From: a virus
Taxonomy: Duplodnaviria > Heunggongvirae > Uroviricota > Caudoviricetes
Direction: 5' to 3' (one strand)
Length of the DNA stretch: 64,000 nt
Virus record (IMG/VR): IMGVR_UViG_3300022661_000054
Below are positions 23,372 to 52,682 of the stretch, one piece after another (the first letter of the stretch is position 1; each line of letters starts with the position of its first letter). Made by a program: the position numbers and the translations under genes. Under the pieces are notes generated by a model that had not been told where the DNA came from, searched no databases, and saw nothing but the letters and a program-made list of their open reading frames with translations.

Positions 23372-25603
23372 TTATACTAATAAATGAAAAGTCCTGCTTA
23401 TGACTTCGCGCTGCTGCTCTCTAGAAAGCTTGTGAAAATTTACAGCGTAACCAGAAACTCTTATTGTGAGATTTGGGTAATTTTCAGGGTGTTCATATGC
23501 ATCCATGAGGGTTTCTCTATTTAGTACATTAACATTAATATGATGAGCGCCTTTAGCAAAGTAACCGTCTAACACAGAGACAAGATTATTTATCTGATTT
23601 TCTTCAGTATTTCCGAGAGTAGCGGGGGCAATAGAAAATGTATTAGAGATACCATCTCGGCAATCATCATAATTTAATTTAGCAACAGAGCTGAGCGATG
23701 CCAGTGCTCCATTTTCTTCTCTATTGTGCATAGGATTAGCACCAGGCGCGAAAGGTTCACCGGCTTTTCTGCCATCTGGCGTAGCTCCAGTATGCTTACC
23801 GTACATTACATTAGAAGTAATAGTTAAAACTGACAACGTGTGAACAGCATTTCGATACGTTGGTATTTTACGTAATTCTTCAATAAACGAATGAGTAATT
23901 TCTTGAGCTATAGTGTCAACTCTATCATCATCATTTCCAAACTTAGGAAATTTACCATCACATGTAAAATCAACAATATAGCCAGCTTCATTTCTAAGAT
24001 TTTTTACATTAGCATATTTAATTGCGCTTAAAGAATCGGCCATAACTGATAAACCTGCAACACCGAAAGCCATTAAACGTTCTACATAAGTATCATGTAG
24101 TGCCATTTGAGACTTTTCATAGCAGTATTTATCATGCATATAATGAATAATGTTCATAGTATTTACATATAGCTTCGCAATCCAAGGCAAGTAAATATCT
24201 AGTCTCTTTTTTACTTCAATATAATCTAAAGTGTCACCTGTCAGTACTGGCATTTGCGGACCAATATGTATACCACTTGTTGTGTCATAACCTCCGTTTA
24301 TCGCAACAAGAAGCAGTTTAGGTAAGTTACATCTAGCACCAAAAAACTGCATTTGCTTGCCCAATTTCATAGCAGATACACAACATGCAATTGCATAGTC
24401 GTCACCATAAATAGGTCTCATTAAATCATCATTTTCATACTGAATAGAATCTGTATCAATAGAAATTTTCGCACAAAACTTTTTAAAACCGTCTGGTAAT
24501 TTTGAAGACCAAAGTACAGTTAGGTTAGGTTCAGGTGATGGGCCAAGAGTGTAAAGAGTATTAAGAATTCTAAAACTAGTTTTGGTTACTAAAGTGTTGC
24601 CATCTGCCTGCATACCACCAACAGCTTCTGTAATCCACATAGGGTCACCACCGAAAAGCTCGTTATATTCAGGAGTTCTAAGGTGTCTAGCGCAACGAAG
24701 TTTAATAACAAAATCATCTAAAAGCTCTTGCGCAGCCTCTTCGGTTAAAAGACCGTTGCGAATATCACGTTCAATATAAATATCAAAAAATGTACAGACC
24801 CTGCCAAGTGACATTGCGGCACCATTTTGCTCTTTAATAGCGGCAAGGTATGCAAAATAAGTCCACTGAATAGCTTCTCGTGCATTTGCTGCAGGCTCTG
24901 AAATATCATATCCATACATTTCTGCCATTTGTTTCATTAAGCCCAAAAACGTAATTTGTTTGTGTAACTCTTCACTTAAACGAATTTCATCGGTATTAAA
25001 GTTTGATGTAGCCAATGCTTTTCTATCTTTTTGCTTTTCTTCAATTAACCGATCAATGCCGTATAGAGCCACTCTACGATAATCACCGATAATTCTACCT
25101 CTACCATATGCGTCAGGAAGACCTGTAATAATATGGCATTTTCTAGCAGCTCTCATTTCATCGGTATAGGCTCTAAATACACCATCATTATGAGTTGTTC
25201 TATATCTAAACTCATTTTCAACTTCTTCGCTGAGCTTGTACCCGTACGCTTCACACGCCTGACGAACCATACGCATTCCGCCAAATGGATTTACGCTTCT
25301 CTTAAGCGGACGATTTGTTTGTAAACCAACAATTAGCTCATTATCCTTATCAATGTAACCAGGAGAAAAACTAGTTAAAGATGATACAGTCGCTGTATCA
25401 ACATCTAAAACACCACCATACTGGCGTTCTAGATCAAATAATCCCTGCACTTTTTTCATTAAATTTGTAGTACGGTCGGTAGGTCCAACTAGAAAGCTGT
25501 GATTACCACTGTAAGAAGTGTAGTTTGTCTTAATAAAATCATGTACGTCTATTTTGTCTTGCCAATAACCGCCCTTAAAATCAAACCAATTTGGATGATT
25601 CAT
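23372..25603 (-). CDS. pflB: Pyruvate formate-lyase (formate C-acetyltransferase)
   Basis: [30 protein letters not shown] (Cys-Cys active site), [12 protein letters not shown] glycyl-radical loop. Confidence 0.95.
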
Positions 25604-35325: not shown

Positions 35326-35664
35326 TTACCAAATATACTCAATTTTAAGCCATTTATCTTCATTCTCAATAGGACAAAACAGTACTCCGGAACCGCTATC
35401 AGGATTAAACAAACTGTCATCTTGCTTCTCTAAGACGTAGCTACCATTCTCTTGTTTATCGCCTGCTGGCTCATTAACGATACTAAAAGAAACAACTTCG
35501 ATATATTCGAGGTTACAATAGCTGTCCTCTGATTTGACGGCTTCTTTAAGACTCCAAATCATCTCATCTCTTTCTCTGTCTATACTTGCCATTTGCTTCG
35601 AAAGAGCATCAATTGCTTTTACAGTATTAATGACATTTTTAGTGAGCATTTTTATCACCTTCAT
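35326..35664 (-). CDS. Hypothetical protein
   Basis: 112-aa coupled ORF. Confidence 0.6.
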   Translation of the reverse strand: MKVIKMLTKNVINTVKAIDALSKQMASIDRERDEMIWSLKEAVKSEDSYCNLEYIEVVSFSIVNEPAGDKQENGSYVLEKQDDSLFNPDSGSGVLFCPIENEDKWLKIEYIW

Positions 35665-36583
35665 GTAATATTTTTAAAGCGTCGTAAAATTTAATTTCTT
35701 TTAAATATGAAGCAGAAGTGAATTCAGCTTCATATTTATCTATAGTCTTCTGCTTCCAGTCTTTAAAGAAATGCAAAGTCATGTGATAACGAATAAGAGC
35801 AGCTACGGTAAGACTGTCTACGTCTTCTTCTTTTCCGTAGAAAAGAGAGATATAAGCACCGACATTTTCGTGGTTGTAATAATGAGCAAACTCAGAATCA
35901 TTTCCTTTAGAATCTTTGAATGCTTTACAAAAAGGCTTACCACAATCATGAAGCGCGGCAGCAATCTTAGTTTCAAGCTCAATAGCAGGCCCTAAATCTT
36001 TTTCTCTTGACTGTACATACTGAAGAGTTTTTAAACAGTGGTCACCGAGAGTTTCAGCATGCCATTTACTTTCCTGATTAAAATCGAAATGGTCAGTAAC
36101 AAAATGGCTCCAATCGCCATATTTGCTCATAGCTTCTGCATTTGCATAAGCAATTTCAATCATATTCCAACCTTCATTGTACCATGGGATATCAAAGCTC
36201 TTATACATACGTTCAAGTACATGGTAAGGCACCACACGAGATCGCTCCTGATTTCTTTGAACGCATAATTCAAAAGGAGTAGCCATAATAATACATCGCT
36301 TAAAACAATCTATATTAGTTAATTCTTGTAAAAATGCCTTACGACGCTTCCAACTGATATTAGTTGCATCATATACTACGTTCTTTCCGTCAGAAAGGTC
36401 TTCTTTTACGCGCTTGTGCAGGAGTTCAAACACCTGCTTATTAATATTTTGGTTATTTACATCGCCAGACAGTTCTTCTCTAATAGCATCGCTACTATGT
36501 ACGCTATAATTAGGATAATTACGTTCAATAAAAGTACTTTTACCACTTCCAGGTAAACCTACCATCATTACAAAAACAGACAT
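35639..36583 (-). CDS. Polynucleotide kinase (AAA_33 P-loop) fused to HD phosphohydrolase; RNA end-healing enzyme
   Basis: GLPGSGKST, SSDAIR, VVYDATN, RNQER; C-terminal H..TLGDH...ALHDCGKP...HENVGA...LHEGD. Confidence 0.85.
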   Translation of the reverse strand: MSVFVMMVGLPGSGKSTFIERNYPNYSVHSSDAIREELSGDVNNQNINKQVFELLHKRVKEDLSDGKNVVYDATNISWKRRKAFLQELTNIDCFKRCIIMATPFELCVQRNQERSRVVPYHVLERMYKSFDIPWYNEGWNMIEIAYANAEAMSKYGDWSHFVTDHFDFNQESKWHAETLGDHCLKTLQYVQSREKDLGPAIELETKIAAALHDCGKPFCKAFKDSKGNDSEFAHYYNHENVGAYISLFYGKEEDVDSLTVAALIRYHMTLHFFKDWKQKTIDKYEAEFTSASYLKEIKFYDALKILHEGDKNAH

Positions 36584-36861: not shown

Positions 36862-37656
36862 TTAATTCTCCGTCCAGTATTTAGTTAGGATATCTACTAA
36901 AATACAGTCCATTCTGTTACAAGTATCTTCAGCTACCTTACGTTCATTAGTATCTATATAAGCCTGCTTTCTAGCTTTAGCATAGTCAACAGCTTCTTTT
37001 GCAATAGCTTTTGCTTGATCTAAATCATATCTATAATTAGCTTTTACACTAATTAAGTATTCACGGTCGTATGGAATTAGACAATCTTTGTATAATACAC
37101 CATCAATGTATCTGTCAAGAAATTCTCTACATCTAATAATATGGTGAAGCTGTTTATTATCATATCCATACTTATCAATCTTGTCTTTTAACGTAGGATA
37201 AGGATGACACAAAGCAGCGTTCTTCTCTAAGATCATACCGACGATACAATTTACAGCAGCATAATTATCAATGTGTGCGATATCCTCATTAATTCTAAGC
37301 ATCTCGAGCCAAAAATAAAAGTAGTCGCGCGGTACGTAAAAGAACTCAGTAAATAAAATCTCAAGGTAGTTTACGTTCTGCTTCTTAAAACATTGCCACA
37401 TAAGTCTAATATCTTTTAAATCAATGTGTGAATTGTCTTCTAATATAAGAGTAGTACTTGTAGGCTGCTTATTTAAAATAAGGTCTTCAGCGGAAGGCAG
37501 AACAATGCACTTTGTATCGATATCACTGCCTTCATAATCCAACTGATAATTCTGTGAGCCTTGCAAAAATATGCCAAAAACTTCATATCCTTGATTTTTC
37601 ACATAATTATAATCGTGCTTTAGTCTTTCACAAATCTTAAGTTCTCTTTCAGTCAT
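36862..37656 (-). CDS. Pol-beta-superfamily nucleotidyltransferase (RlaP/YcgL-like)
   Basis: LQGSQNYQLDYEGSDIDTK (GS...DxD), KQNVNYLEILF, KQLHHIIR. Confidence 0.75.
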   Translation of the reverse strand: MTERELKICERLKHDYNYVKNQGYEVFGIFLQGSQNYQLDYEGSDIDTKCIVLPSAEDLILNKQPTSTTLILEDNSHIDLKDIRLMWQCFKKQNVNYLEILFTEFFYVPRDYFYFWLEMLRINEDIAHIDNYAAVNCIVGMILEKNAALCHPYPTLKDKIDKYGYDNKQLHHIIRCREFLDRYIDGVLYKDCLIPYDREYLISVKANYRYDLDQAKAIAKEAVDYAKARKQAYIDTNERKVAEDTCNRMDCILVDILTKYWTEN

Positions 37657-39291: not shown

Positions 39292-40083
39292 TTAATTATC
39301 GCCTCCAATAAAATTATCATCTAAAACTAGTACGTTAACTTCACCAGTATGTGCAGTACAGCGATCAATGCCGATGATTCCTTGAGATTCGTTAAAGTAC
39401 GGATCCCACTTGGCATCATCACCAAACTCTGATAGCTCACCTTGACTATCGCATAAATGACCTAAAGAACAATGCCAATGTCCGAATACGATTGTCTTAC
39501 CGGTTTTGTTCATACCGTCTTGTGCTTTCCAGAAAGGATTACCCCACATAGCTTCTTCCCACTCTACCTCGGAAGCATTACGCCAGTTCTCATTGTATTC
39601 GTAGTATTTTCCAACCTGGTGCCAAGGCTTACTAGCACCTTTATCATAATGAGTAATAGTAGGAATCCAACTATGAACAAAAATATACTTTTCAGTTTCA
39701 AAATAGTTTACAAGTAGGTCGCGATACGCTGCCGTTTTATTCAAAGCTGTATCACAGCACTTAGCAAAATCCGCCGGAAGAGGACTTCCACCGAGGTCTT
39801 GAACAGTTCTTACAGTGCCATTAGACTTATCGTGGCTATATGGAAAACATCTTGCGCAAAGATCGTCAAAAAGTAGGTCATGATTACCTTTTACTAGAAT
39901 CTTTCGCTCAAGCGACATTAAATAGTGCAACAATTCAATACTATTAGGACCCCTATCAAAGCAATCGCCGCACGAAATCAGCCAGTGTTCTTCGTTATTA
40001 GGGTCAAAACCTGCTCTGTCTAAAGCATTTTTAAGTGGTTCTAAGAAACTGTGAATATCAGAAACAACAAAAAGCTTAGGCAT
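39292..40083 (-). CDS. Calcineurin-like metallophosphoesterase
   Basis: SDIHS, GDCFDRG, GNHD, FVHS, FGHWH, IDRC. Confidence 0.9.
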   Translation of the reverse strand: MPKLFVVSDIHSFLEPLKNALDRAGFDPNNEEHWLISCGDCFDRGPNSIELLHYLMSLERKILVKGNHDLLFDDLCARCFPYSHDKSNGTVRTVQDLGGSPLPADFAKCCDTALNKTAAYRDLLVNYFETEKYIFVHSWIPTITHYDKGASKPWHQVGKYYEYNENWRNASEVEWEEAMWGNPFWKAQDGMNKTGKTIVFGHWHCSLGHLCDSQGELSEFGDDAKWDPYFNESQGIIGIDRCTAHTGEVNVLVLDDNFIGGDN

Positions 40084-40938
40084 TTATTTATCTCCTTCTG
40101 AGTAAACCCACCGTTCAATGTAGTATCTATCTTGAGTAAAAATGGGAATTTCTTTATCGATTACCCATTCACTTCTCATACAGCGAGTCTCTTCTTTTGT
40201 TTTAAAATCAATACAAATATCTTCTTTTTCTACACGATTACAGCAGACACCACGTTTAAACTCAGTAGGCATATCATTAAAATTGATACCTCTCTGAGTC
40301 ATTAACATATCTTGAATGTCATTGCAAGACTTACCGTGTAGTTCCTTATGAGAGAAGTTGCACTGACCAAGCATCTGAATTGCGTTGCGAGTAGCATCCT
40401 GCTGACGCCAGATGAAGCAGTTGGTAACTTCTTCTTTAGGAATGTTAAAACAGCGAGAATCAAACATTGCACCATTGTCAATAGCCTTCTTTAATGTATT
40501 AGCATATTTCTCAACATCTTCTTCCCAATAATGGTTTACCCATACATCAGACTGTAAATAATTATCAATTAATTCTCTAAGATACTTATTGAAAACCATT
40601 GTTGCCATGCTTGCTGACACGCTGCACATTTTCTGCACATTATAACCAAACCAAGCATCGGTATCAAGAGTGTCATAGTCTGTGAGAAGAAGAGTGATTT
40701 CGTCTGACTGTGTATAACCAAGCTTACAACCCTGGATATTCTCACAGAGATACTTCATAGTCGCATTCATAGTATTGTGGAAAATCTCGTCATAAGGCCT
40801 CTTAAGACCTTTAGTGAAGGTGTGGAAAGCTTTGCCGTCAAGTCTAATGATTACAGGAACTCGTCTAGGTAGATAATGTTTACTCCTATTTTCATAGAAT
40901 TCTTTCATTCTATCACCAAGTGCATCTTTAGTACTCAT
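40084..40938 (-). CDS. Thg1-like 3'-5' nucleotidyltransferase (tRNA-His guanylyltransferase family)
   Basis: IIRLDGKAFHTFTK...KPYD-like, GYTQSDEITL, FDSRCF, WRQQDATRN. Confidence 0.9.
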   Translation of the reverse strand: MSTKDALGDRMKEFYENRSKHYLPRRVPVIIRLDGKAFHTFTKGLKRPYDEIFHNTMNATMKYLCENIQGCKLGYTQSDEITLLLTDYDTLDTDAWFGYNVQKMCSVSASMATMVFNKYLRELIDNYLQSDVWVNHYWEEDVEKYANTLKKAIDNGAMFDSRCFNIPKEEVTNCFIWRQQDATRNAIQMLGQCNFSHKELHGKSCNDIQDMLMTQRGINFNDMPTEFKRGVCCNRVEKEDICIDFKTKEETRCMRSEWVIDKEIPIFTQDRYYIERWVYSEGDK

Positions 40939-41644: not shown

Positions 41645-42290
41645 CATTCAAAGATAAATATAATACATTCCTAGGCCTTCGCCTTACCACTTGTTATATT
41701 CAAGTACATTCGGTCACATAGATGACAAGTCTGAGCTTCGGGGAGCGACCCCTAACTTCTTGCCACGAAATCTGGGTACTTGGTTAACGGCCAAGCCCTG
41801 GACTACATAAACTATGACAGGATTGATTACCTGCACCCCTCACCGTCTATTCAGAAAAAATTAATATCAGTATTCCTAATTATATACTAGCATTAATTCT
41901 TTGTTAATTGTCTTCGGCTACTAGGAGGTTACTTGAATCTCTTATACCCACATTTCTATGGTTCACGACAAATGAGATTATTGGCATTTCCAAGGTGTAA
42001 TACAGTCACCAACTAAACCCTAACTTGGATTCGGCTCAGCTATTAACCAAGCTTTCTATTACTCTCACGAGACTCTTCCTACCATTACTTGCTATAACAT
42101 CAGCACATACAACATATGTTTCGGGTCCTACCCTTAACTCATATACTCGCATATATAAGTAGCGCGGTTTCCGAGGTATCCCTCTTATGTTACCATCACA
42201 CATTGTTCAGCTTTCGCTTAGTTGCATTCTCAGCACAAGAAGCGTGTCTTGTGTTTAGCACTGAGTTAGTAATTATATTTATCTTTCAAG
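41645..42290 (-). ncRNA. Large structured ncRNA, ROOL-like (GOLLD not excluded)
   Basis: ~640-nt ORF-free region closed by a perfect 15-bp helix (41650-41664 with 42272-42286); own promoter at ~42310; many hairpins; 3' motifs GGGGUCGCUCCCC and CUCAGACUUGUC recalled from large phage ncRNAs; next to the tRNA array. Confidence 0.6.
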
Positions 42291-42518: not shown

Positions 42519-42564
42519 CGGTGCCCGCGGTAGGATTCGAACCCACTCAACGCCATAACGGGCA
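42519..42564 (-). ncRNA. tRNA top-half minihelix (acceptor + T arm only)
   Basis: TGCCCGT-11 nt-GTGGG TTCGAAT CCTAC-C-GCGGGCA-CCG. Confidence 0.55.
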
Positions 42565-42673
42565 TATATAAATATGACTGACTCGGCCGGTTAGGAAACT
42601 GTACACCGCAAGTTCTTTAGCTATCACTTTTCGCCTCGCTACCTAAGCATTAACGCCAGTCATATTCAACAAA

Positions 42674-43345
42674 TTAATCTTTCAAGTATCTCCATATAAA
42701 GCCATAAGCAGTTTTTCGTTTACCTTTGCAAACCTCTAGAATGTGAGCTCTAATTGCGCCGCCTTTAGCATCAGAAATACCACTATCTCGAATCCACTGC
42801 TCAGCTTCATAAGAATTAGTAACACTATGAATTAAATTATTTTTTAAATCATAAATATTTATTGGTTTACTATAAAGCTCTTTTACTAAATCCGGGCTAG
42901 ACTTAACTTGAATATTAGCAGCTTTAGCAATATCGATAATTGTGTCTTTTGTGCACTTAAAAACTTCTGCAGCATCCTTAACACAATTATTATTACGTAA
43001 ATACTGAATAATCGCGCGTCTATCATAAAGCATCTTGCTTCCGCCACCCAAAGTAGCGTTATAACCAGGACCAAGCGGATCTTTACAAAAAGTATGAAAT
43101 TTCGTAATCCAATAAATTTCTCGGTCATTTAAAAGCTCTGGATCATCAGCTAGTTCTTCAACAACTTCTATAGTAAAAGCTGAATAACCATACTTTAACA
43201 TAGCTTTGTACAGAGGTCTTTTACTGTGACCAGTTCTAGCGCTGTCTTTTAAATGCTCTGCAAACCTTTTTTCTAATGAATAAAGTGTTTGACCTATGTA
43301 AGCCTTGCCATTAAGATTATTTGTAATTTTATAAATATAAGCCAT
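42674..43345 (-). CDS. Free-standing GIY-YIG homing endonuclease (Seg-like, NUMOD1-type C-terminus)
   Basis: MAYIYKITN...YIGQT...RFAEH...LNDREIYWI...GYNATLGG; C-terminal ILEVCKGKRKTAYGFIWRY. Confidence 0.9.
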   Translation of the reverse strand: MAYIYKITNNLNGKAYIGQTLYSLEKRFAEHLKDSARTGHSKRPLYKAMLKYGYSAFTIEVVEELADDPELLNDREIYWITKFHTFCKDPLGPGYNATLGGGSKMLYDRRAIIQYLRNNNCVKDAAEVFKCTKDTIIDIAKAANIQVKSSPDLVKELYSKPINIYDLKNNLIHSVTNSYEAEQWIRDSGISDAKGGAIRAHILEVCKGKRKTAYGFIWRYLKD

Positions 43346-43463
43346 AAGAATCACCTAGTTAGTAACTTAGTAGCAGCTGCATTACTAACTAGGTTACTTA
43401 TTTATTGGACAATTCAGTTTAATTAACAACTCACACCACGTGAAGGTATGTCCATTGTGAGTC

Positions 43464-43745: not shown

Positions 43746-43890
43746 TGGCGACTCCGATCGGGATCGAACCGACGACCTCCTGCGTGTGGAGCCTTATACT
43801 AGTCTTGCACTAGCATCTCTTTATAAGAGTGTTTTACTATTAAACTAATAAAGCACAGGCAGGCGTTCTAACCATCTGAACTACGGAGCC
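43746..43890 (-). tRNA. tRNA-Asp(GUC) interrupted in the anticodon by a nested tRNA-like element
   Basis: GGCTCCG/CGGAGTC G CCA; anticodon stem CCTGC/GCAGG; loop CTGT|C AC after removing 43787-43854. Confidence 0.8.
43787..43854 (-). ncRNA. Nested tRNA-like element (68 nt, CCA end)
   Basis: GCTTTAT/ATAAGGC T CCA acceptor; D-like GTTT..AAAC; stunted CTCTT-ATA-AAGAG; T arm GCTAG TGCAAGA CTAGT. Confidence 0.75.
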
Positions 43891-44121
43891 ATATGGTAGC
43901 ATGGCTGAGTTTTTTAAGGTTACCTCAAGCGTTGCTAACTGTTCATCCTATCTATATTAAACCTCTCATTCCTCAACCAAAGTTCTTACTCTTGGAATGT
44001 TGACCCGCTCACACCTTGGTGAAACGATTGATGCATCAATTTGTCTTCTGTTATAGGTCGATTACCGTAGCCTTGGATTGCATAGATAATGCGCATTAAT
44101 GCTATAACAAAGAAGCTTAAA

Positions 44122-44208
44122 AGACAAATACTAGACTCGAACTAGTTCCTGACAATCCAATCCCGTTGATAGGGCATTCTGTCTTATGCTACCTTACACC
44201 AATTTGCC
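44122..44208 (-). ncRNA. tRNA-like element with expanded anticodon loop
   Basis: GGCAAAT/ATTTGTC acceptor, D arm GTG..CAT, T arm ACTAG TTCGAGT CTAGT; GACA/TGTC stem encloses ~25 nt; no CCA. Confidence 0.55.
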
Positions 44209-44427: not shown

Positions 44428-44987
44428 ATATATTTTATAATGTAGTTTATTCTCTTACCCTTTTATTTCACTACTTGCCTGCTTATCCACAGTAATATAA
44501 ATTACCTGATACGAGTTTCTCAAGGGTACAGGCTATAACTGATTTTATCGTTGTCTGCCAACTATCTTATTCCTTAATAAGCAAATTTGGGAGCATTTAT
44601 CGTTTGCCCAAACATTTTAGTCTTTACACCAAAATTCTATGTTTCAGATTACCACATTGTCAGCACAATGACCATTAAGGATTTTGTTAAGGGATATGTT
44701 CCCTTACTCGATGGACCAGGGTCTTTCAACCAGCCCTATCAAATAGGTGAACTCGCACAACAGTTCACAGTAGATATCACCACATAGACATCTTTACCTC
44801 ACATAGTTAACACTATGATTTTTGATAAAGCGGTAACCAGCCACACCCATGCTTCCTTCACTACTTAACTTCTGGTTTCATAGCTCGCATGTGCCCTTAC
44901 TATTTGATATTTGTGGGGCTTTATACCCACTCGTTTCTTAAAACGACAAGCACATAGTTATTCAACGGTAACTCTACGAAACCCACC

Positions 44988-46831: not shown

Positions 46832-46937
46832 CAGATGAGGTTGGAGTTGCACCAACGAAACTGTATAACCCACATGTATACTAAGGTTAATCAGTAGAGA
46901 TTACGGTCCCTTACTTTGACTTCTTGTATACTCATCT
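46832..46937 (-). ncRNA. tRNA-like element with non-canonical expanded core
   Basis: Perfect acceptor AGATGAG/CTCATCT stacked on T arm GTTGG TGCAACT CCAAC; ~75-nt middle has no normal D or anticodon arm. Confidence 0.5.
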
Positions 46938-47148
46938 AAAAAATTAATTTACAGGACCGGTTTCCTTATCCTATTTTCGGAAGTAAATTAATTCCGCTAC
47001 TTACACTTTAGATTAAGTTATTGACCCCAAACTTAGATGAACAAGCAGTAAGAACTATAAGGGGGAAAGTTTTATAGATAAATCACTTTCAAAACTCTCC
47101 ACTTTCGTAGGAACACGTGGTAGCCTTGTACAGAGGGGCTCAACCTCT

Positions 47149-47246
47149 TGGACACGACAGCAGGACTTGAACCTACTTATCTTCAAGAAATCAATCTTGG
47201 TCTTTTTCCTGGGATTCGGATGCTTTACCACATAAGCTATATCGTG
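47149..47246 (-). ncRNA. tRNA-like element with aberrant anticodon/variable region
   Basis: CACGATA/TGTCGTG T CCA, good D arm GCTT..AAGC, T arm GTAGG TTCAAGT CCTGC; no assignable anticodon. Confidence 0.6.
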
Positions 47247-47774: not shown

Positions 47775-47846
47775 GGAAGTGAGTTAGAGTCGAACTAACC
47801 TCAGTGCCTACACTTTTTGTCAGCCTTATGAGTCCCTTTTCACTTC
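47775..47846 (-). ncRNA. Degenerate tRNA-like element
   Basis: GAAGTGA/TCACTTC acceptor + GTTAG TTCGACT CTAAC T arm; middle not canonical. Confidence 0.5.
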
Positions 47847-47977
47847 ATATTTAATTACATATTTATTATACGATACGAATTTATATATTTTAACAAATTT
47901 TATAAATATTTTAAGCATAAAAAATGACGCTTAAATGAATTTAATCATTATAAGCGTCACTAGATTATCGAGTATTT

Positions 47978-50941: not shown

Positions 50942-51093
50942 TGGTGACGCGTACGGGAATCGAACCCGTGATACCGCCGTTGGTGCTAGATGTCAGACTC
51001 GAACTGACACATAACCTCTATCTCTAGTGGCCTGCCTTACCTTTTGGCTAATCTAACGAAAGGGCGGTGTCTTAACCGCTTGACCAACGCGCC
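50942..51093 (-). tRNA. tRNA-Glu(UUC) interrupted after position 36 by a nested tRNA-like element
   Basis: GGCGCGT/ACGCGTC A CCA; stem CCGCC/GGCGG; loop CTTTC|AC after removing 50981-51057. Confidence 0.8.
50981..51057 (-). ncRNA. Nested tRNA-like element (77 nt, CCA end)
   Basis: GTTAGAT/ATCTAGC A CCA; D arm GCC-AAAAGGTAA-GGC; T arm GTCAG TTCGAGT CTGAC; degenerate anticodon arm. Confidence 0.8.
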
Positions 51094-51414: not shown

Positions 51415-51553
51415 TGGTGCGGGATATCGGACTTGAACCGATACGGTATCACTACCGAGGGATTTTTGGTACTTGATGTAGGTACTGCCCCTACTAGATA
51501 GACACTATGTCATCAAGCAAGTCCCTTGCGTCTGCCTATTCCGCCAATCCCGC
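51415..51553 (-). tRNA. tRNA-Leu(UAA) interrupted between positions 34/35 by a nested mini-tRNA
   Basis: GCGGGAT/ATCCCGC A CCA, Leu-type D loop and long variable arm; stem AGGGA/TCCCT; loop CTT|AAAA after removing 51467-51518. Confidence 0.8.
51467..51518 (-). ncRNA. Nested mini-tRNA (52 nt, CCA end)
   Basis: GCTTGAT/ATCAAGT A CCA; hairpin GACA-TAG-TGTC; T-like arm GTAGG GGCAGTA CCTAC. Confidence 0.75.
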
Positions 51554-51917: not shown

Positions 51918-52568
51918 TAAACTCTGCTACCTTTGGGTCACGCTGTACAGGCGTCCGTTTCCAAAGTTGTACGTTGTAGCGTATTCTAATATGGCTTTAT
52001 ACTCACTACGGAATAAATGATAATCTTTCCCACTGATTATCTGACAACTTATCTCTCATCATTAATTCCACGTTCTGTTACCAGATAGCTTATGGCTTTT
52101 ACCTGAGCGAGCTTCATTCTCTCGGCAGGCGAAGTTGTCCCTACTGTCCTTAATCATCCGCCAATAATAAAACGGAACGGCCTATGCTAGTTAATGGCCT
52201 GCGGGCGGTTCATCTATGAGGAAATGACCTTGTAATGACCCTTACGGAGCATCCAACTAATCATCTATTCCACAGTGCATCCTCATAGACATATCGGAGT
52301 TCAACCGAATTTATTTTTTTAAGTTTTTTATCAATCTCATAAGCATTACTTATCTCATTGAAAGGTTTTCAACACTTACAAACCAATTTAAGGCTGTTCA
52401 TCACACTCCATTTACCACTGCTGCTTCTTCGCTAGAGTTAGGCGTTGACCTTAAATCACAGCCTAAACCAACGCTTCGTGGCACCTAACGTATTTTATTA
52501 TACAATGTGTTCTTTATAAATTTAGCACTTATTAAATTAATAATTTAATAAATTATTAAAAATATTTG

Positions 52569-52682
52569 GACTAGCTAAAAGGTGCTCTACCGCTGAGCTA
52601 CATTTCACCTAACAGATGAAATGGTTGGATTCGAACCAACGACCACCCGCTTAAAAGGCGTTAAGAAATAAGCATAGTCTCT
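52569..52682 (-). ncRNA. Y-RNA-like RNA, copy 2, enclosing a circularly permuted tRNA-Lys(UUU)-like domain (YrlA-like)
   Basis: GACUA-U-GCU/AGC-UAGUC stem; order anticodon hairpin - T arm - loop-closed acceptor stem - D arm. Confidence 0.8.

What the first reader, a model, noticed from the sequence alone, without database searches (positions are those of the whole stretch)
51415..51553. tRNA-Leu(UAA) interrupted by a minimal 52-nt acceptor+T mini-tRNA
Minus strand reads AGGGA CUU [GCUUGAU GACAUAGUGUC UAUCUA GUAGG GGCAGUA CCUAC AUCAAGU A CCA] AAAA UCCCU. The insert is close to the minimal substrate known for bacterial RNase P and CCA-adding enzyme (coaxial acceptor/T helix plus CCA). That suggests selection keeps only what excision needs. 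Leu(UAA) decodes UUA, a frequent codon in this AT-rich genome.
Basis: partly seen in the sequence, partly recalled or inferred. Interest (0 to 1): 0.82.

Follow-up and report, generated by a model that had tools for sequence, protein, structure and literature searches.

The report
tRNA-shaped mini-intron splitting phage tRNA-Leu
A large gut phage's only leucine tRNA for the common UUA codon is split inside its anticodon by a 52-base cut-down tRNA ending in CCA; this is one conserved member of a barely described class of phage tRNA introns that probably need tRNA-trimming enzymes and an RNA ligase, not self-splicing, to be removed.

Summary
Window 51415-51553 (minus strand) is a tRNA-Leu(UAA) gene. 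A 52-nt insert (51467-51518) splits its anticodon between U34 and A35. The insert runs from the first base of a 7-bp acceptor stem to N73-CCA.

It is not chance, an assembly artefact or a dead gene:
- A related phage carries the same tRNA uninterrupted (82/87 identical), and the indel is exactly the 52 nt.
- 14 viral contigs carry homologous 47-67-nt inserts at the same site.
- The outer tRNA stems and the inner acceptor and T stems all show compensatory changes.
- The same mini-element sits in tRNA-Gln and tRNA-Lys of related phages. Full-size tRNA-like versions sit in Glu, Asp (both in this window), Lys and Ile.
- The inserts lie anywhere from position 32/33 to 36/37, always flush with the inner element's ends.

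The splice sites therefore follow the inner element, not the outer tRNA. This fits RNase P cutting at the 5' end, an unknown nuclease cutting after CCA, and sealing by a phage ATP-dependent RNA ligase. None of these steps is shown, and the metatranscriptome contigs were uninformative.

The only published precedent I found is the "enigmatic" Lak-megaphage tRNA introns (Devoto 2019), which differ in having a 5' leader and no CCA. This scan has noted the same design before on other DNA (about 75 genomes by word search).

The parts
51415..51553 (-). Whole interrupted tRNA-Leu(UAA) gene (139 nt, encoded CCA)
   Evidence: ARAGORN with introns allowed. The whole-gene fold gives an outer cloverleaf plus the inner helix. 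An uninterrupted ortholog is 82/87 identical.
51519..51553 (-). 5' exon: acceptor 5' strand, D arm, anticodon-stem 5' strand, C32 U33 U34
   Evidence: Alignment A3 against the uninterrupted tRNA of G001. Outer stems covary.
51467..51518 (-). 52-nt tRNA-shaped insert (intron). Acceptor stem 51512-51518 with 51471-51477; hairpin 51501-51511; T-like arm 51478-51494; discriminator A 51470; CCA 51467-51469
   Evidence: Sequence. Covariation on alignment A1. Covariance model R1 scores it 51.7 bits. The 52-nt indel is exact.
51415..51466 (-). 3' exon: A35 A36 A37 A38, anticodon-stem 3' strand, long variable arm, T arm, acceptor 3' strand, A73, CCA
50942..51093 (-). Second nested case: tRNA-Glu(UUC) with a 77-nt full-size tRNA-like insert (50981-51057) between positions 36 and 37, ending ACCA
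   Evidence: Long Rfam tRNA hit. ARAGORN with introns plus the acceptor-pairing filter. The insert folds as a cloverleaf with a degenerate anticodon arm.
43746..43890 (-). Third nested case: tRNA-Asp(GUC) with a 68-nt tRNA-like insert (43787-43854) between positions 35 and 36, ending UCCA
   Evidence: Removing the insert leaves the loop CUGUCAC and discriminator G73, which reads as Asp and not as ARAGORN's His call.
35639..36583 (-). P-loop polynucleotide-kinase-like (AAA_33) plus HD-domain protein; candidate RNA end-healing enzyme
   Evidence: Pfam and PHROGs. Its homolog lies next to the ligase-like ORF beside the tRNA array in G006.
36862..37656 (-). Nucleotidyltransferase-like protein (phrog_388); no Pfam hit
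39292..40083 (-). Calcineurin-like metallophosphoesterase; candidate 3'-end healing enzyme
40084..40938 (-). Thg1-like 3'-5' nucleotidyltransferase. It served here as the marker gene for finding related phages.
   Evidence: Pfam Thg1 at 108.8 bits and phrog_4717 at 320 bits. 189 relatives in viral contigs.

Best explanation
The 52 nt are an intron shaped like the top half of a tRNA, sitting in a functional phage tRNA-Leu(UAA) gene. The precursor folds as an outer cloverleaf whose anticodon loop carries an inner acceptor/T-arm stack ending in ACCA. Host RNase P recognises the inner stack and its RCCA tail and cuts between outer U34 and inner G1 (inferred). A second endonuclease cuts directly after the inner CCA; its identity is unknown, and an RNase Z/BN-type cut after CCA is only a precedent from memory (inferred). 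The outer stems hold the two exon ends together. If both cuts are of the RNase P/Z type, the ends are 3'-OH and 5'-phosphate, and an ATP-dependent RNA ligase of the phage's RNA-repair set joins them. The kinase-HD and phosphoesterase would heal the ends if the chemistry differs (inferred). The result is the 87-nt tRNA with loop CUUAAAA. Shown here: the anatomy, the exact boundaries, purifying selection on both the outer tRNA and the inner element, recurrence in other tRNAs and phages, and presence/absence polymorphism. Not shown: any cleavage or ligation.
For: (1) Exact boundaries. The uninterrupted ortholog in related phage G001 is 82/87 identical to exon 1 plus exon 2, and the alignment gap is exactly G1...CCA.
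(2) The gene is alive. In 10 nested Leu genes the outer acceptor and T stems are 100% paired with changes on both sides. The inner acceptor is 91% and the inner T stem 100% paired. Overall, 26 of 37 pairs changed on both sides, 0 of 500 shuffles reached the observed values, and slid controls gave 37-48%.
(3) Among the 11 mini-inserts, the acceptor (7 positions) and T stem (5 positions) have no indels, N73-CCA is invariant (ACCA was required by the search pattern for the nine Leu members, not for the two Gln ones), and only the connector varies in length. This matches the minihelix-plus-RCCA substrate that I recall for bacterial RNase P.
(4) Eleven independent insertion events (Leu, Gln x2, Lys x4, Ile x2, Glu, Asp) lie at positions from 32/33 to 36/37. 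Every one is flush with the inner element's first base and its N73-CCA tail (CAA in one G006 copy), and every one leaves a 7-nt loop. No consensus follows the CCA. The sites are therefore set by the inner structure, not by the outer tRNA.
(5) N-1 is U in 9 of 11 events.
(6) No alternative machinery was found. No Rfam ribozyme or group I hit lies at the locus. No splicing-endonuclease domain was found in 5 nested-tRNA phage genomes, and no RtcB in 10.
(7) ATP-dependent RNA-ligase-like ORFs (OB fold plus PF09414, Naegleria Rnl-like) occur in 8 of 10 related records. Five of these are weak, below the Pfam cut-off. In G001 and G006 the ORF lies beside the tRNA array, and in G006 it is also next to a kinase-HD gene.
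(8) The window carries kinase-HD, phosphoesterase, nucleotidyltransferase and Thg1-like genes just downstream of the array.
(9) The pattern is phage-specific. All 14 hits in viral contigs were true nested tRNAs; all 18 hits in 185,579 species genomes were chance matches.
Against: No cleavage or spliced product was observed.
- A nuclease that cuts exactly after an internal CCA is not identified. As I recall, CCA blocks Bacillus-type RNase Z. No metallo-beta-lactamase (RNase Z-like) gene was found in 5 nested-tRNA phage genomes.
- U(-1) could pair with A73 and shift the RNase P cut.
- The inner T loop (GGCAGUA) is not a canonical T loop.
- Co-transcriptional RNase P cleavage would release the 5' exon before the 3' exon is made.
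- The ligases found are Rnl5-like. From memory, these prefer nicks in duplexes, not breaks in loops.
- No ligase lies inside this 64-kb window. G009 and G003 show no ligase hit, and ligase-bearing relatives G001 and G004 have no nested tRNAs, so the link is loose.
- The same phages carry a second, non-tRNA-like insert class in tRNA genes, which RNase P could not remove.
- The published Lak introns carry a 5' leader that RNase P alone would not remove.
Confidence: 0.5

Rival explanations
1. The intron is real, but a dedicated enzyme excises it. This would be a still unrecognised phage (or host) endonuclease that binds the inner tRNA-like handle and leaves 2',3'-cyclic phosphate and 5'-OH ends. 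The phage kinase-HD and metallophosphoesterase then heal the ends and a ligase seals them, in a 'heal and seal' route like T4 Pnkp/Rnl1 repair or fungal Trl1.
For: The window carries a full end-healing set next to the array: kinase-HD 35639-36583 and phosphoesterase 39292-40083. RNase P/Z-type ends would not need such enzymes. Kinase-HD is adjacent to the ligase-like ORF in G006. A second, non-tRNA-like insert class in the same phages suggests a more general splicing capacity. No RNase Z-like gene is present and no known nuclease cuts after an internal CCA.
Against: No candidate nuclease was identified, and EndA is absent. The end-healing genes are explained equally well by their usual role, repair after host anticodon nucleases (PMC7824862). 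The flush G1 and CCA ends are exactly the mature tRNA ends that RNase P and 3' processing produce.
Confidence: 0.2
2. The RNA is not spliced into a decoding tRNA. The locus produces other products, such as a released CCA-ended mini-RNA, tRNA halves, or a decoy for host tRNA-targeting nucleases. The outer tRNA serves only as a processing scaffold.
For: The loops of the mini-element are conserved beyond what simple helices need: G-K-C-A-K-Y-A and the A-G of the hairpin loop. This hints at a function or partner of its own. The array is surrounded by other non-coding RNAs, ROOL and Y-RNA-like. No spliced RNA was seen.
Against: In every independent event, removing the insert restores a perfect 7-nt loop with U33, the anticodon and a purine at 37. 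The outer exons evolve like a working tRNA, with compensatory changes. In this window it is the only gene for the commonest Leu codon. A scaffold would not need an intact split anticodon.
Confidence: 0.12
3. A small self-cleaving or self-splicing RNA: the insert removes itself, as group I introns do at the same 34/35 site of cyanobacterial and plastid tRNA-Leu(UAA).
For: The insertion site is the same as that of the classic tRNA-Leu(UAA) group I intron (from memory). Phages of this kind are rich in self-splicing elements (PMC12880540).
Against: At 47-52 nt it is far too small for a group I core. No Rfam ribozyme or intron family matches, even at E <= 1. What is conserved is tRNA-like helices and CCA, not a catalytic core. 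Two precise cuts would need two ribozymes.
Confidence: 0.03
4. A dead tRNA gene, disrupted by a junk or mobile insertion and decaying, or an assembly chimera.
For: Standard tRNA finders reject it. One related copy has CAA in place of CCA. Intron and exon similarities between phages are discordant, as expected for a mobile insert.
Against: The nested form occurs in 14 independent viral contigs and in several animal faecal runs. Both the outer and inner stems keep pairing through compensatory changes across phages whose Thg1 proteins are only 55-76% identical.
Confidence: 0.03

Closest known systems
'Enigmatic' introns in tRNA genes of Lak megaphages (Devoto et al. 2019, Nat Microbiol, PMC6784885; text and Table S6 read)
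   Same: They are phage tRNA genes interrupted in the anticodon loop. The intron 'itself may encode a tRNA'. Intron presence varies between related genomes, and the boundaries were fixed by alignment. No Rfam family matches, and no mechanism is known.
   Different: The Lak introns listed in Table S6 (Tyr, Phe, Thr, Gly) are 79-114 nt. On my own parsing of those sequences, they carry about 25-30 nt of non-tRNA leader before the inner acceptor stem and do not end in CCA. Here the insert is 52 nt, is reduced to the top half, is flush at both ends (G1...ACCA) and lies inside the anticodon triplet. The phage clade is different (about 150-220 kb, standard code, lysins of the kind used on Gram-positive hosts).
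Group I intron of tRNA-Leu(UAA) in cyanobacteria and plastids (established knowledge, from memory)
   Same: Same tRNA and same insertion point, between U34 and A35. Removing it restores the anticodon.
   Different: Those introns are self-splicing ribozymes of 200 nt or more with a P1-P9 core. This one is 52 nt, tRNA-shaped, matches no Rfam intron family and cannot plausibly self-splice.
Archaeal/eukaryal tRNA introns removed by the splicing endonuclease and a ligase
   Same: It would be protein-dependent cut-and-ligate splicing in or near the anticodon loop, with the exons held together by the mature tRNA body.
   Different: There is no bulge-helix-bulge geometry: both junctions flank the same end of one helix. 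The position varies from 32/33 to 36/37. No EndA-family domain was found in five related phage genomes.
RNase P model substrates (acceptor/T-arm minihelices, external guide sequences with RCCA) and mascRNA-type tRNA-like elements cut out of longer RNAs by RNase P and RNase Z (established knowledge, from memory; RCCA dependence of non-tRNA substrates also in the abstract of PMC12710915)
   Same: A 12-bp acceptor/T stack followed by RCCA directs cleavage at the 5' edge of the helix. A tRNA-like module thus defines RNA ends inside a larger transcript.
   Different: Here the module sits inside another tRNA's anticodon. The flanks must be rejoined, which no known RNase P-dependent pathway does.
Phage tRNA repair: T4 Pnkp/Rnl1 after PrrC cleavage, and RlaP/Rnl systems of jumbo phages (PMC7824862)
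   Same: Anticodon-loop breaks are resealed by phage kinase/phosphatase and ATP-dependent ligase. The same gene families flank this array and occur in its relatives.
   Different: Repair answers host damage. Here the break would be programmed by the gene's own architecture.

Membership tests
tRNA (outer gene, Leu-UAA isoacceptor) | Cloverleaf with 7-bp acceptor, D, anticodon and T arms, long variable arm, 7-nt anticodon loop, N73-CCA | tested here: met
   Met once the 52 nt are removed. ARAGORN with introns calls Leu(taa). The spliced form is 82/87 identical to an uninterrupted phage tRNA-Leu(UAA). All outer stems covary.
tRNA (outer gene, Leu-UAA isoacceptor) | Recognised as a contiguous tRNA by Rfam RF00005 or default ARAGORN | tested here: not met
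   No call at 51415-51553 at gathering score or at E <= 1. The interruption hides the gene from standard annotation.
tRNA-shaped introns of phage tRNA genes (Lak-type, Devoto 2019) | The insert lies in the anticodon loop of a phage tRNA and is absent from orthologous genes of related phages | tested here: met
   Insert at 34/35. G001 and G004 carry uninterrupted Leu(UAA) genes, and the indel is exactly 52 nt.
tRNA-shaped introns of phage tRNA genes (Lak-type, Devoto 2019) | The insert itself folds like a tRNA | tested here: met
   Top half only. The acceptor and T stems are supported by 11 of 12 covarying pairs. Full-size versions occur in Glu and Asp of this window, and a 67-nt intermediate sits at the same Leu site in L091.
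tRNA-shaped introns of phage tRNA genes (Lak-type, Devoto 2019) | Sequence homology to the Lak introns | not tested
   I compared them only by eye from Table S6. The architecture differs: Lak introns have a 5' leader and no CCA.
Group I intron | Conserved catalytic core (P3-P9), typically 200 nt or more, matching an Rfam intron model | tested here: not met
   The insert is 52 nt, and no intron or ribozyme family matched at E <= 1.
Endonuclease-dependent (BHB) tRNA intron | Bulge-helix-bulge at the exon-intron junctions and an EndA/Sen-family endonuclease | tested here: not met
   Both junctions flank the base of the inner acceptor helix. PF01974 is absent from 5 related phage genomes, while the archaeal controls were positive. 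The host genome was not available.
Bacterial RNase P substrate | Coaxial acceptor/T stack of 12 bp, elbow, 3' RCCA, preferably U at -1 and G at +1 | tested here: met
   7 + 5 positions without indels in 11 homologs; A73-CCA; G+1; U-1. The T loop is non-canonical.
Bacterial RNase P substrate | Actually cleaved by RNase P at the predicted bond | not testable with these tools
   This needs an in-vitro cleavage assay or 5'-end mapping. The contig-level RNA data could not show ends.

The most novel reading that the evidence does not exclude
Phages of this clade use a fourth kind of tRNA splicing. The intron is a stripped-down tRNA, so the cell's own tRNA end-processing enzymes (RNase P, plus a nuclease that cuts at the CCA end) excise it, and the phage RNA-repair ligase rejoins the anticodon loop. 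Such introns arise as 'repair scars': a mature tRNA, from 5'-phosphate G1 to CCA-3'OH, is ligated by mistake between the halves of a tRNA broken by a host anticodon nuclease, and the product is then copied back into DNA. This would explain three things: every insert begins at a mature 5' end and ends at a mature CCA end; the positions scatter across the loop; and the elements shrink over time to the minimal processing substrate.
Probability: 0.15. Interest if true: 0.95.

Novelty: new variant of a known kind. Interest (0 to 1): 0.78.

Why it matters
The only route known for removing bacterial and phage tRNA introns is self-splicing. Enzyme-dependent tRNA splicing is regarded as an archaeal and eukaryotic trait. 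A conserved, covarying intron that is nothing but an RNase P-type substrate would imply a cut-and-ligate tRNA splicing pathway in bacteria-phage systems, built from housekeeping tRNA-trimming enzymes and phage RNA-repair ligases. That would give those widespread ligases a programmed substrate.

There is also a practical side. Standard annotation misses these genes. In this window Leu(UAA), Glu and Asp went uncalled or were mis-called, so phage tRNA repertoires and codon-supply analyses are being undercounted.

The 47-52-nt minis also amount to a natural experiment defining the minimal structure that the excision machinery needs.

Tried and rejected
- RNA evidence. Laying these runs gave contigs only. 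A joint skipping exactly the 77-nt Glu insert (50980 to 51058) appeared in the RNA runs but also in DNA run X11, so it comes from ordinary tRNA-Glu genes of other organisms. Among the 15 joints shown (61 more were not shown), none skips the Leu insert, and contigs cannot show ends. This says nothing either way about splicing.
- Relatives through the neighbouring 665-aa gene: none found in viral contigs.
- Exact-junction DNA search: no hit.
- Cultured phages: BLAST of the gene against 50,697 phage records found only uninterrupted tRNA-Leu halves, so no isolate is yet available for experiments.
- Cellular genomes: all 18 pattern hits were chance matches without tRNA context.
- Free-standing copies of the mini-element: none in 240 kb of arrays with model R1.
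- Donor tRNA for the inserts: best identity to any phage tRNA is 55-74%, so no donor can be named.
- Ligase in the window: tblastn with the relatives' ligases found nothing. RtcB, EndA and RNase Z-like genes were not found in related genomes.
- Whole genome of the window: not held.
- Literature: seven full-text searches found no description of CCA-ended tRNA-shaped introns apart from Devoto 2019.
- Promoter scan: it did not call the extended -10 (TGTATAAT) that I see by eye about 70 nt upstream.

Full report
**What is there**

On the minus strand, window 51553 to 51415 reads as a class II tRNA. It has a 7-bp acceptor stem (GCGGGAU/AUCCCGC), a D arm, anticodon stem AGGGA/UCCCU, a long variable arm, a T arm with loop UUCAAGU, A73 and an encoded CCA. 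They form a 7-bp helix (GCUUGAU/AUCAAGU), an 11-nt hairpin, a 6-nt linker, a 5-bp stem with a 7-nt loop (GUAGG GGCAGUA CCUAC), then A and CCA.

Default ARAGORN and the Rfam tRNA model do not see the gene. The minimum-energy fold of the 139 nt gives the outer cloverleaf and the inner acceptor helix (z = -2.7). The insert alone is not significantly stable (z = -1.1), so a single-sequence fold is not the evidence here.

**Context**

The window is part of an uncultured, AT-rich phage. All genes are on one strand and include tail lysins, topoisomerase and a 2917-aa ORF. No whole genome is held.

The gene sits in an array, from about 42.4 to 51.9 kb, holding at least 18 tRNAs, together with a ROOL RNA and a weak Y-RNA-like hit. 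Just downstream of the array lie Thg1-like, metallophosphoesterase, nucleotidyltransferase-like and P-loop kinase-HD genes. These families are commonly linked to RNA repair in large phages (PMC7824862).

Two more tRNAs in the window are built the same way. tRNA-Glu(UUC) carries a 77-nt insert between 36 and 37, and tRNA-Asp(GUC) carries a 68-nt insert between 35 and 36. Both inserts run from the first base of a 7-bp acceptor stem to N73-CCA. ARAGORN labels these genes SeC and His. With the G...CCA boundaries, the restored loops are CUUUCAC and CUGUCAC, and the discriminators fit Glu and Asp.

**The boundaries are exact**

The closest relative by the Thg1 marker (G001, 75% protein identity) has an uninterrupted 87-nt tRNA-Leu(UAA). 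It is 82/87 identical to exon 1 plus exon 2 of the window gene. In the alignment the only gap is the 52 nt from G1 to CCA. G004 also has an uninterrupted copy.

**It is a conserved family**

A pattern built from the junctions (outer GGGACUU, then G, then 38-62 nt, then ACCA, then AAAAUCCC) found 14 viral contigs. Every one is a tRNA-Leu(UAA) with a homologous insert at 34/35: nine distinct versions of 47-52 nt and one of 67 nt. The same pattern over one genome from each of 185,579 prokaryotic species gave 18 hits, about the number expected by chance. None had a tRNA context or matched the model.

On a MAFFT alignment of 11 mini-inserts, nine from Leu genes and two from Gln genes that the pattern did not constrain:
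- the acceptor and T-stem pairs are 95.5% paired;
- 11 of 12 pairs changed on both sides;
- none of 500 shuffles reached the observed cells paired or covariation score (3 of 500 reached the count of pairs changed on both sides);
- partners slid by 1-3 columns pair in only 33-48% of cells.

On the full genes, the outer acceptor and T stems are 100% paired with compensatory changes. The inner stems are 91% and 100% paired. Part of the outer anticodon stem was fixed by my pattern and carries no weight.

Three things stay constant in the insert: the 7 + 5 stacked positions with no indels, N73-CCA, and two loops. The T-like loop reads G-K-C-A-K-Y-A, and the small hairpin loop carries an invariant A-G. 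The connector varies in length. The 67-nt version at the same site still has a D arm and a canonical UUCAAAU T loop. This suggests that the minis are reduced tRNAs and that the small hairpin is a D-arm remnant.

**It is one case of a wider habit of this phage clade**

I scanned the arrays of ten related, mostly complete 140-205 kb phage records with ARAGORN allowing introns. The same mini-element turned up in tRNA-Gln(UUG) at 35/36 and at 34/35, and in tRNA-Lys(UUU) at 34/35. Full-size tRNA-like inserts turned up in tRNA-Lys at 32/33 and 35/36 (twice) and in tRNA-Ile(UAU) at 34/35 and 36/37.

Counting the window's three, that makes eleven independent events. In each one:
- the insert starts at the first base of its own acceptor stem (G in 8 events, C in 3);
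- it ends at N73-CCA, with a single copy reading CAA;
- the remainder is a correct 7-nt loop.

U precedes the insert in 9 of 11 events. The base after CCA shows no preference. Model R1 found no free-standing copy of the mini-element in 240 kb of arrays. Intron and exon similarities between phages are discordant. For example, the window against L098 gives exons 89% and intron 58%, while the window against L092 gives exons 75% and intron 77%. Together with the presence/absence pattern, this suggests gain, loss or exchange of the insert.

**How it most likely works**

The cut sites follow the inner element wherever it sits in the outer loop. A nuclease that measures from the outer tRNA body, or a bulge-helix-bulge enzyme, is therefore unlikely, and no EndA domain occurs in five of these phage genomes. 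Self-splicing is very unlikely for 47-52 nt with no ribozyme match.

What is conserved is the set of features that define a bacterial RNase P substrate: a 12-bp acceptor/T stack, an elbow and RCCA (established knowledge, from memory). The best-supported reading is therefore that RNase P makes the 5' cut.

The 3' cut directly after CCA has no identified enzyme. From memory, RNase Z of Thermotoga and RNase BN of E. coli can cut after CCA, whereas Bacillus RNase Z is blocked by it. No RNase Z-like gene was found in five phage genomes.

If both cuts leave 3'-OH and 5'-phosphate, an ATP-dependent ligase could seal them directly. Ligase-like ORFs (OB fold plus PF09414, with weak similarity to Naegleria RNA ligase) occur in 8 of 10 related records. 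Five of the eight score below the Pfam cut-off. In G001 and G006 the ORF lies beside the tRNA array. RtcB was never found.

The window itself holds no ligase. An earlier, untested note of this scan reports an RlaP-ligase pair 36 kb beyond its end.

Ligase presence is not specific to phages with nested tRNAs, so this is opportunity, not proof. I give the RNase P / 3' nuclease / ligase model 0.5. A dedicated nuclease with heal-and-seal gets 0.2 and a non-decoding product 0.12. Self-splicing and a dead gene or assembly chimera get 0.03 each.

**RNA data**

The stretch occurs in animal faecal and bovine gut DNA runs, and at low share in two bovine gut metatranscriptomes. Only contigs could be laid. 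The one joint that skips an insert exactly (Glu) is also present in a DNA run, so it belongs to other organisms' tRNA-Glu genes. Nothing bears on the Leu junction. DNA contigs of run X1 do cover the nested Leu gene without differences, so the arrangement is real DNA.

**What is known**

The only description I could find is Devoto et al. 2019 on Lak megaphages. It reports tRNAs with "enigmatic introns", one of which "itself may encode a tRNA", and offers no mechanism. On my parsing of the sequences in their Table S6, those introns carry a leader of about 25-30 nt before the inner acceptor stem and do not end in CCA. They are therefore a different variant.

Seven full-text searches found nothing on CCA-ended, flush, top-half tRNA introns. 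The gut-phage tRNA-array paper (PMC10879173) and the two jumbo-phage papers (PMC7824862, PMC13282480) that I searched for the word 'intron' do not mention tRNA introns. Subscription literature is not covered.

This scan has flagged the same design on other DNA: a word search returned 90 notes in at least 75 genomes. Those notes gave me the lead to the Lak paper, which I then read myself.

**Verdict**

The mechanism is plausible but untested, and its 3' cleavage step is unsolved. It is a new variant of a barely described kind.

Noticed in passing
L126:3427-3546, L128:1531-1650, L129:16020-16138 (tRNA-Asn-like) and L129:15888-16013, L099:12468-12593 (tRNA-Trp-like): There is a second, non-tRNA-like class of 37-52-nt inserts in tRNA genes of the related phages. 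In the Asn gene the insert lies between the D arm and the anticodon stem, and in the Trp-like gene at the 5' edge of the anticodon loop. The inserts share the motif AACAGCAAGUUU and a hairpin. They have no CCA and no acceptor-like helix, so RNase P could not remove them.
   Followed up: partly
L126:588-737 (phage G006): The tRNA-Ile(UAU) insert of G006 ends in ACAA, whereas the homologous insert in G008 ends in GCCA. It is the only copy without CCA among those seen. It could be a decaying copy, or a sign that the second C is dispensable.
   Followed up: no
window 47149-47246 (-) and L083:2436-2553: A 95-118-nt tRNA-like gene is conserved between the window and phage G004. It has normal acceptor, D and T arms but an aberrant region where the anticodon arm should be. 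Rfam tRNA scores it 35 bits, and ARAGORN disagrees with itself on its identity.
   Followed up: no
window 42674-43354 (-): A free-standing GIY-YIG (Seg-like) homing-endonuclease gene lies inside the tRNA array, about 400 nt downstream of the nested tRNA-Asp. The arrangement resembles segB in the T4 tRNA cluster, and the gene is a possible driver of array or intron exchange.
   Followed up: no
window 41653-42289 (-), 44691-44737 (-), 52549-52668 (-): A ROOL RNA (286 bits) closes the array. A DUF3800-XI RNA motif scores just above its gathering threshold (40.1 against 37.8 bits). A Y-RNA-like (YrlA) match falls below threshold (39 against 69 bits).
   Followed up: no
window 42540-42620, 44140-44200, 46840-46870, 47800-47850, 52290-52330 (-): Orphan T-arm-like hairpins (GGUUCGAxUCC type), some with partial acceptor-like pairing, lie in the long spacers of the array. 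They may be tRNA remnants or further tRNA-like RNAs.
   Followed up: no
window 44017-44192 and 47038-47148: Contigs from a bovine gut metatranscriptome run (X17) match these array spacers without a single difference. This hints that the phage, or a near-identical one, is present and perhaps transcribed there. DNA carry-over cannot be excluded.
   Followed up: no
window 23372-25603 (-): A full-length pyruvate-formate-lyase-like glycyl-radical enzyme (PFL-like 688 bits plus a Gly_radical domain) is encoded by the phage.
   Followed up: no
L125:9406-12008 (phage G006): A divergent 492-aa Rnl5-like ligase ORF and a kinase-HD gene sit side by side at the edge of the tRNA array of a complete phage that carries nested Leu, Gln and Ile tRNAs.
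   Followed up: partly
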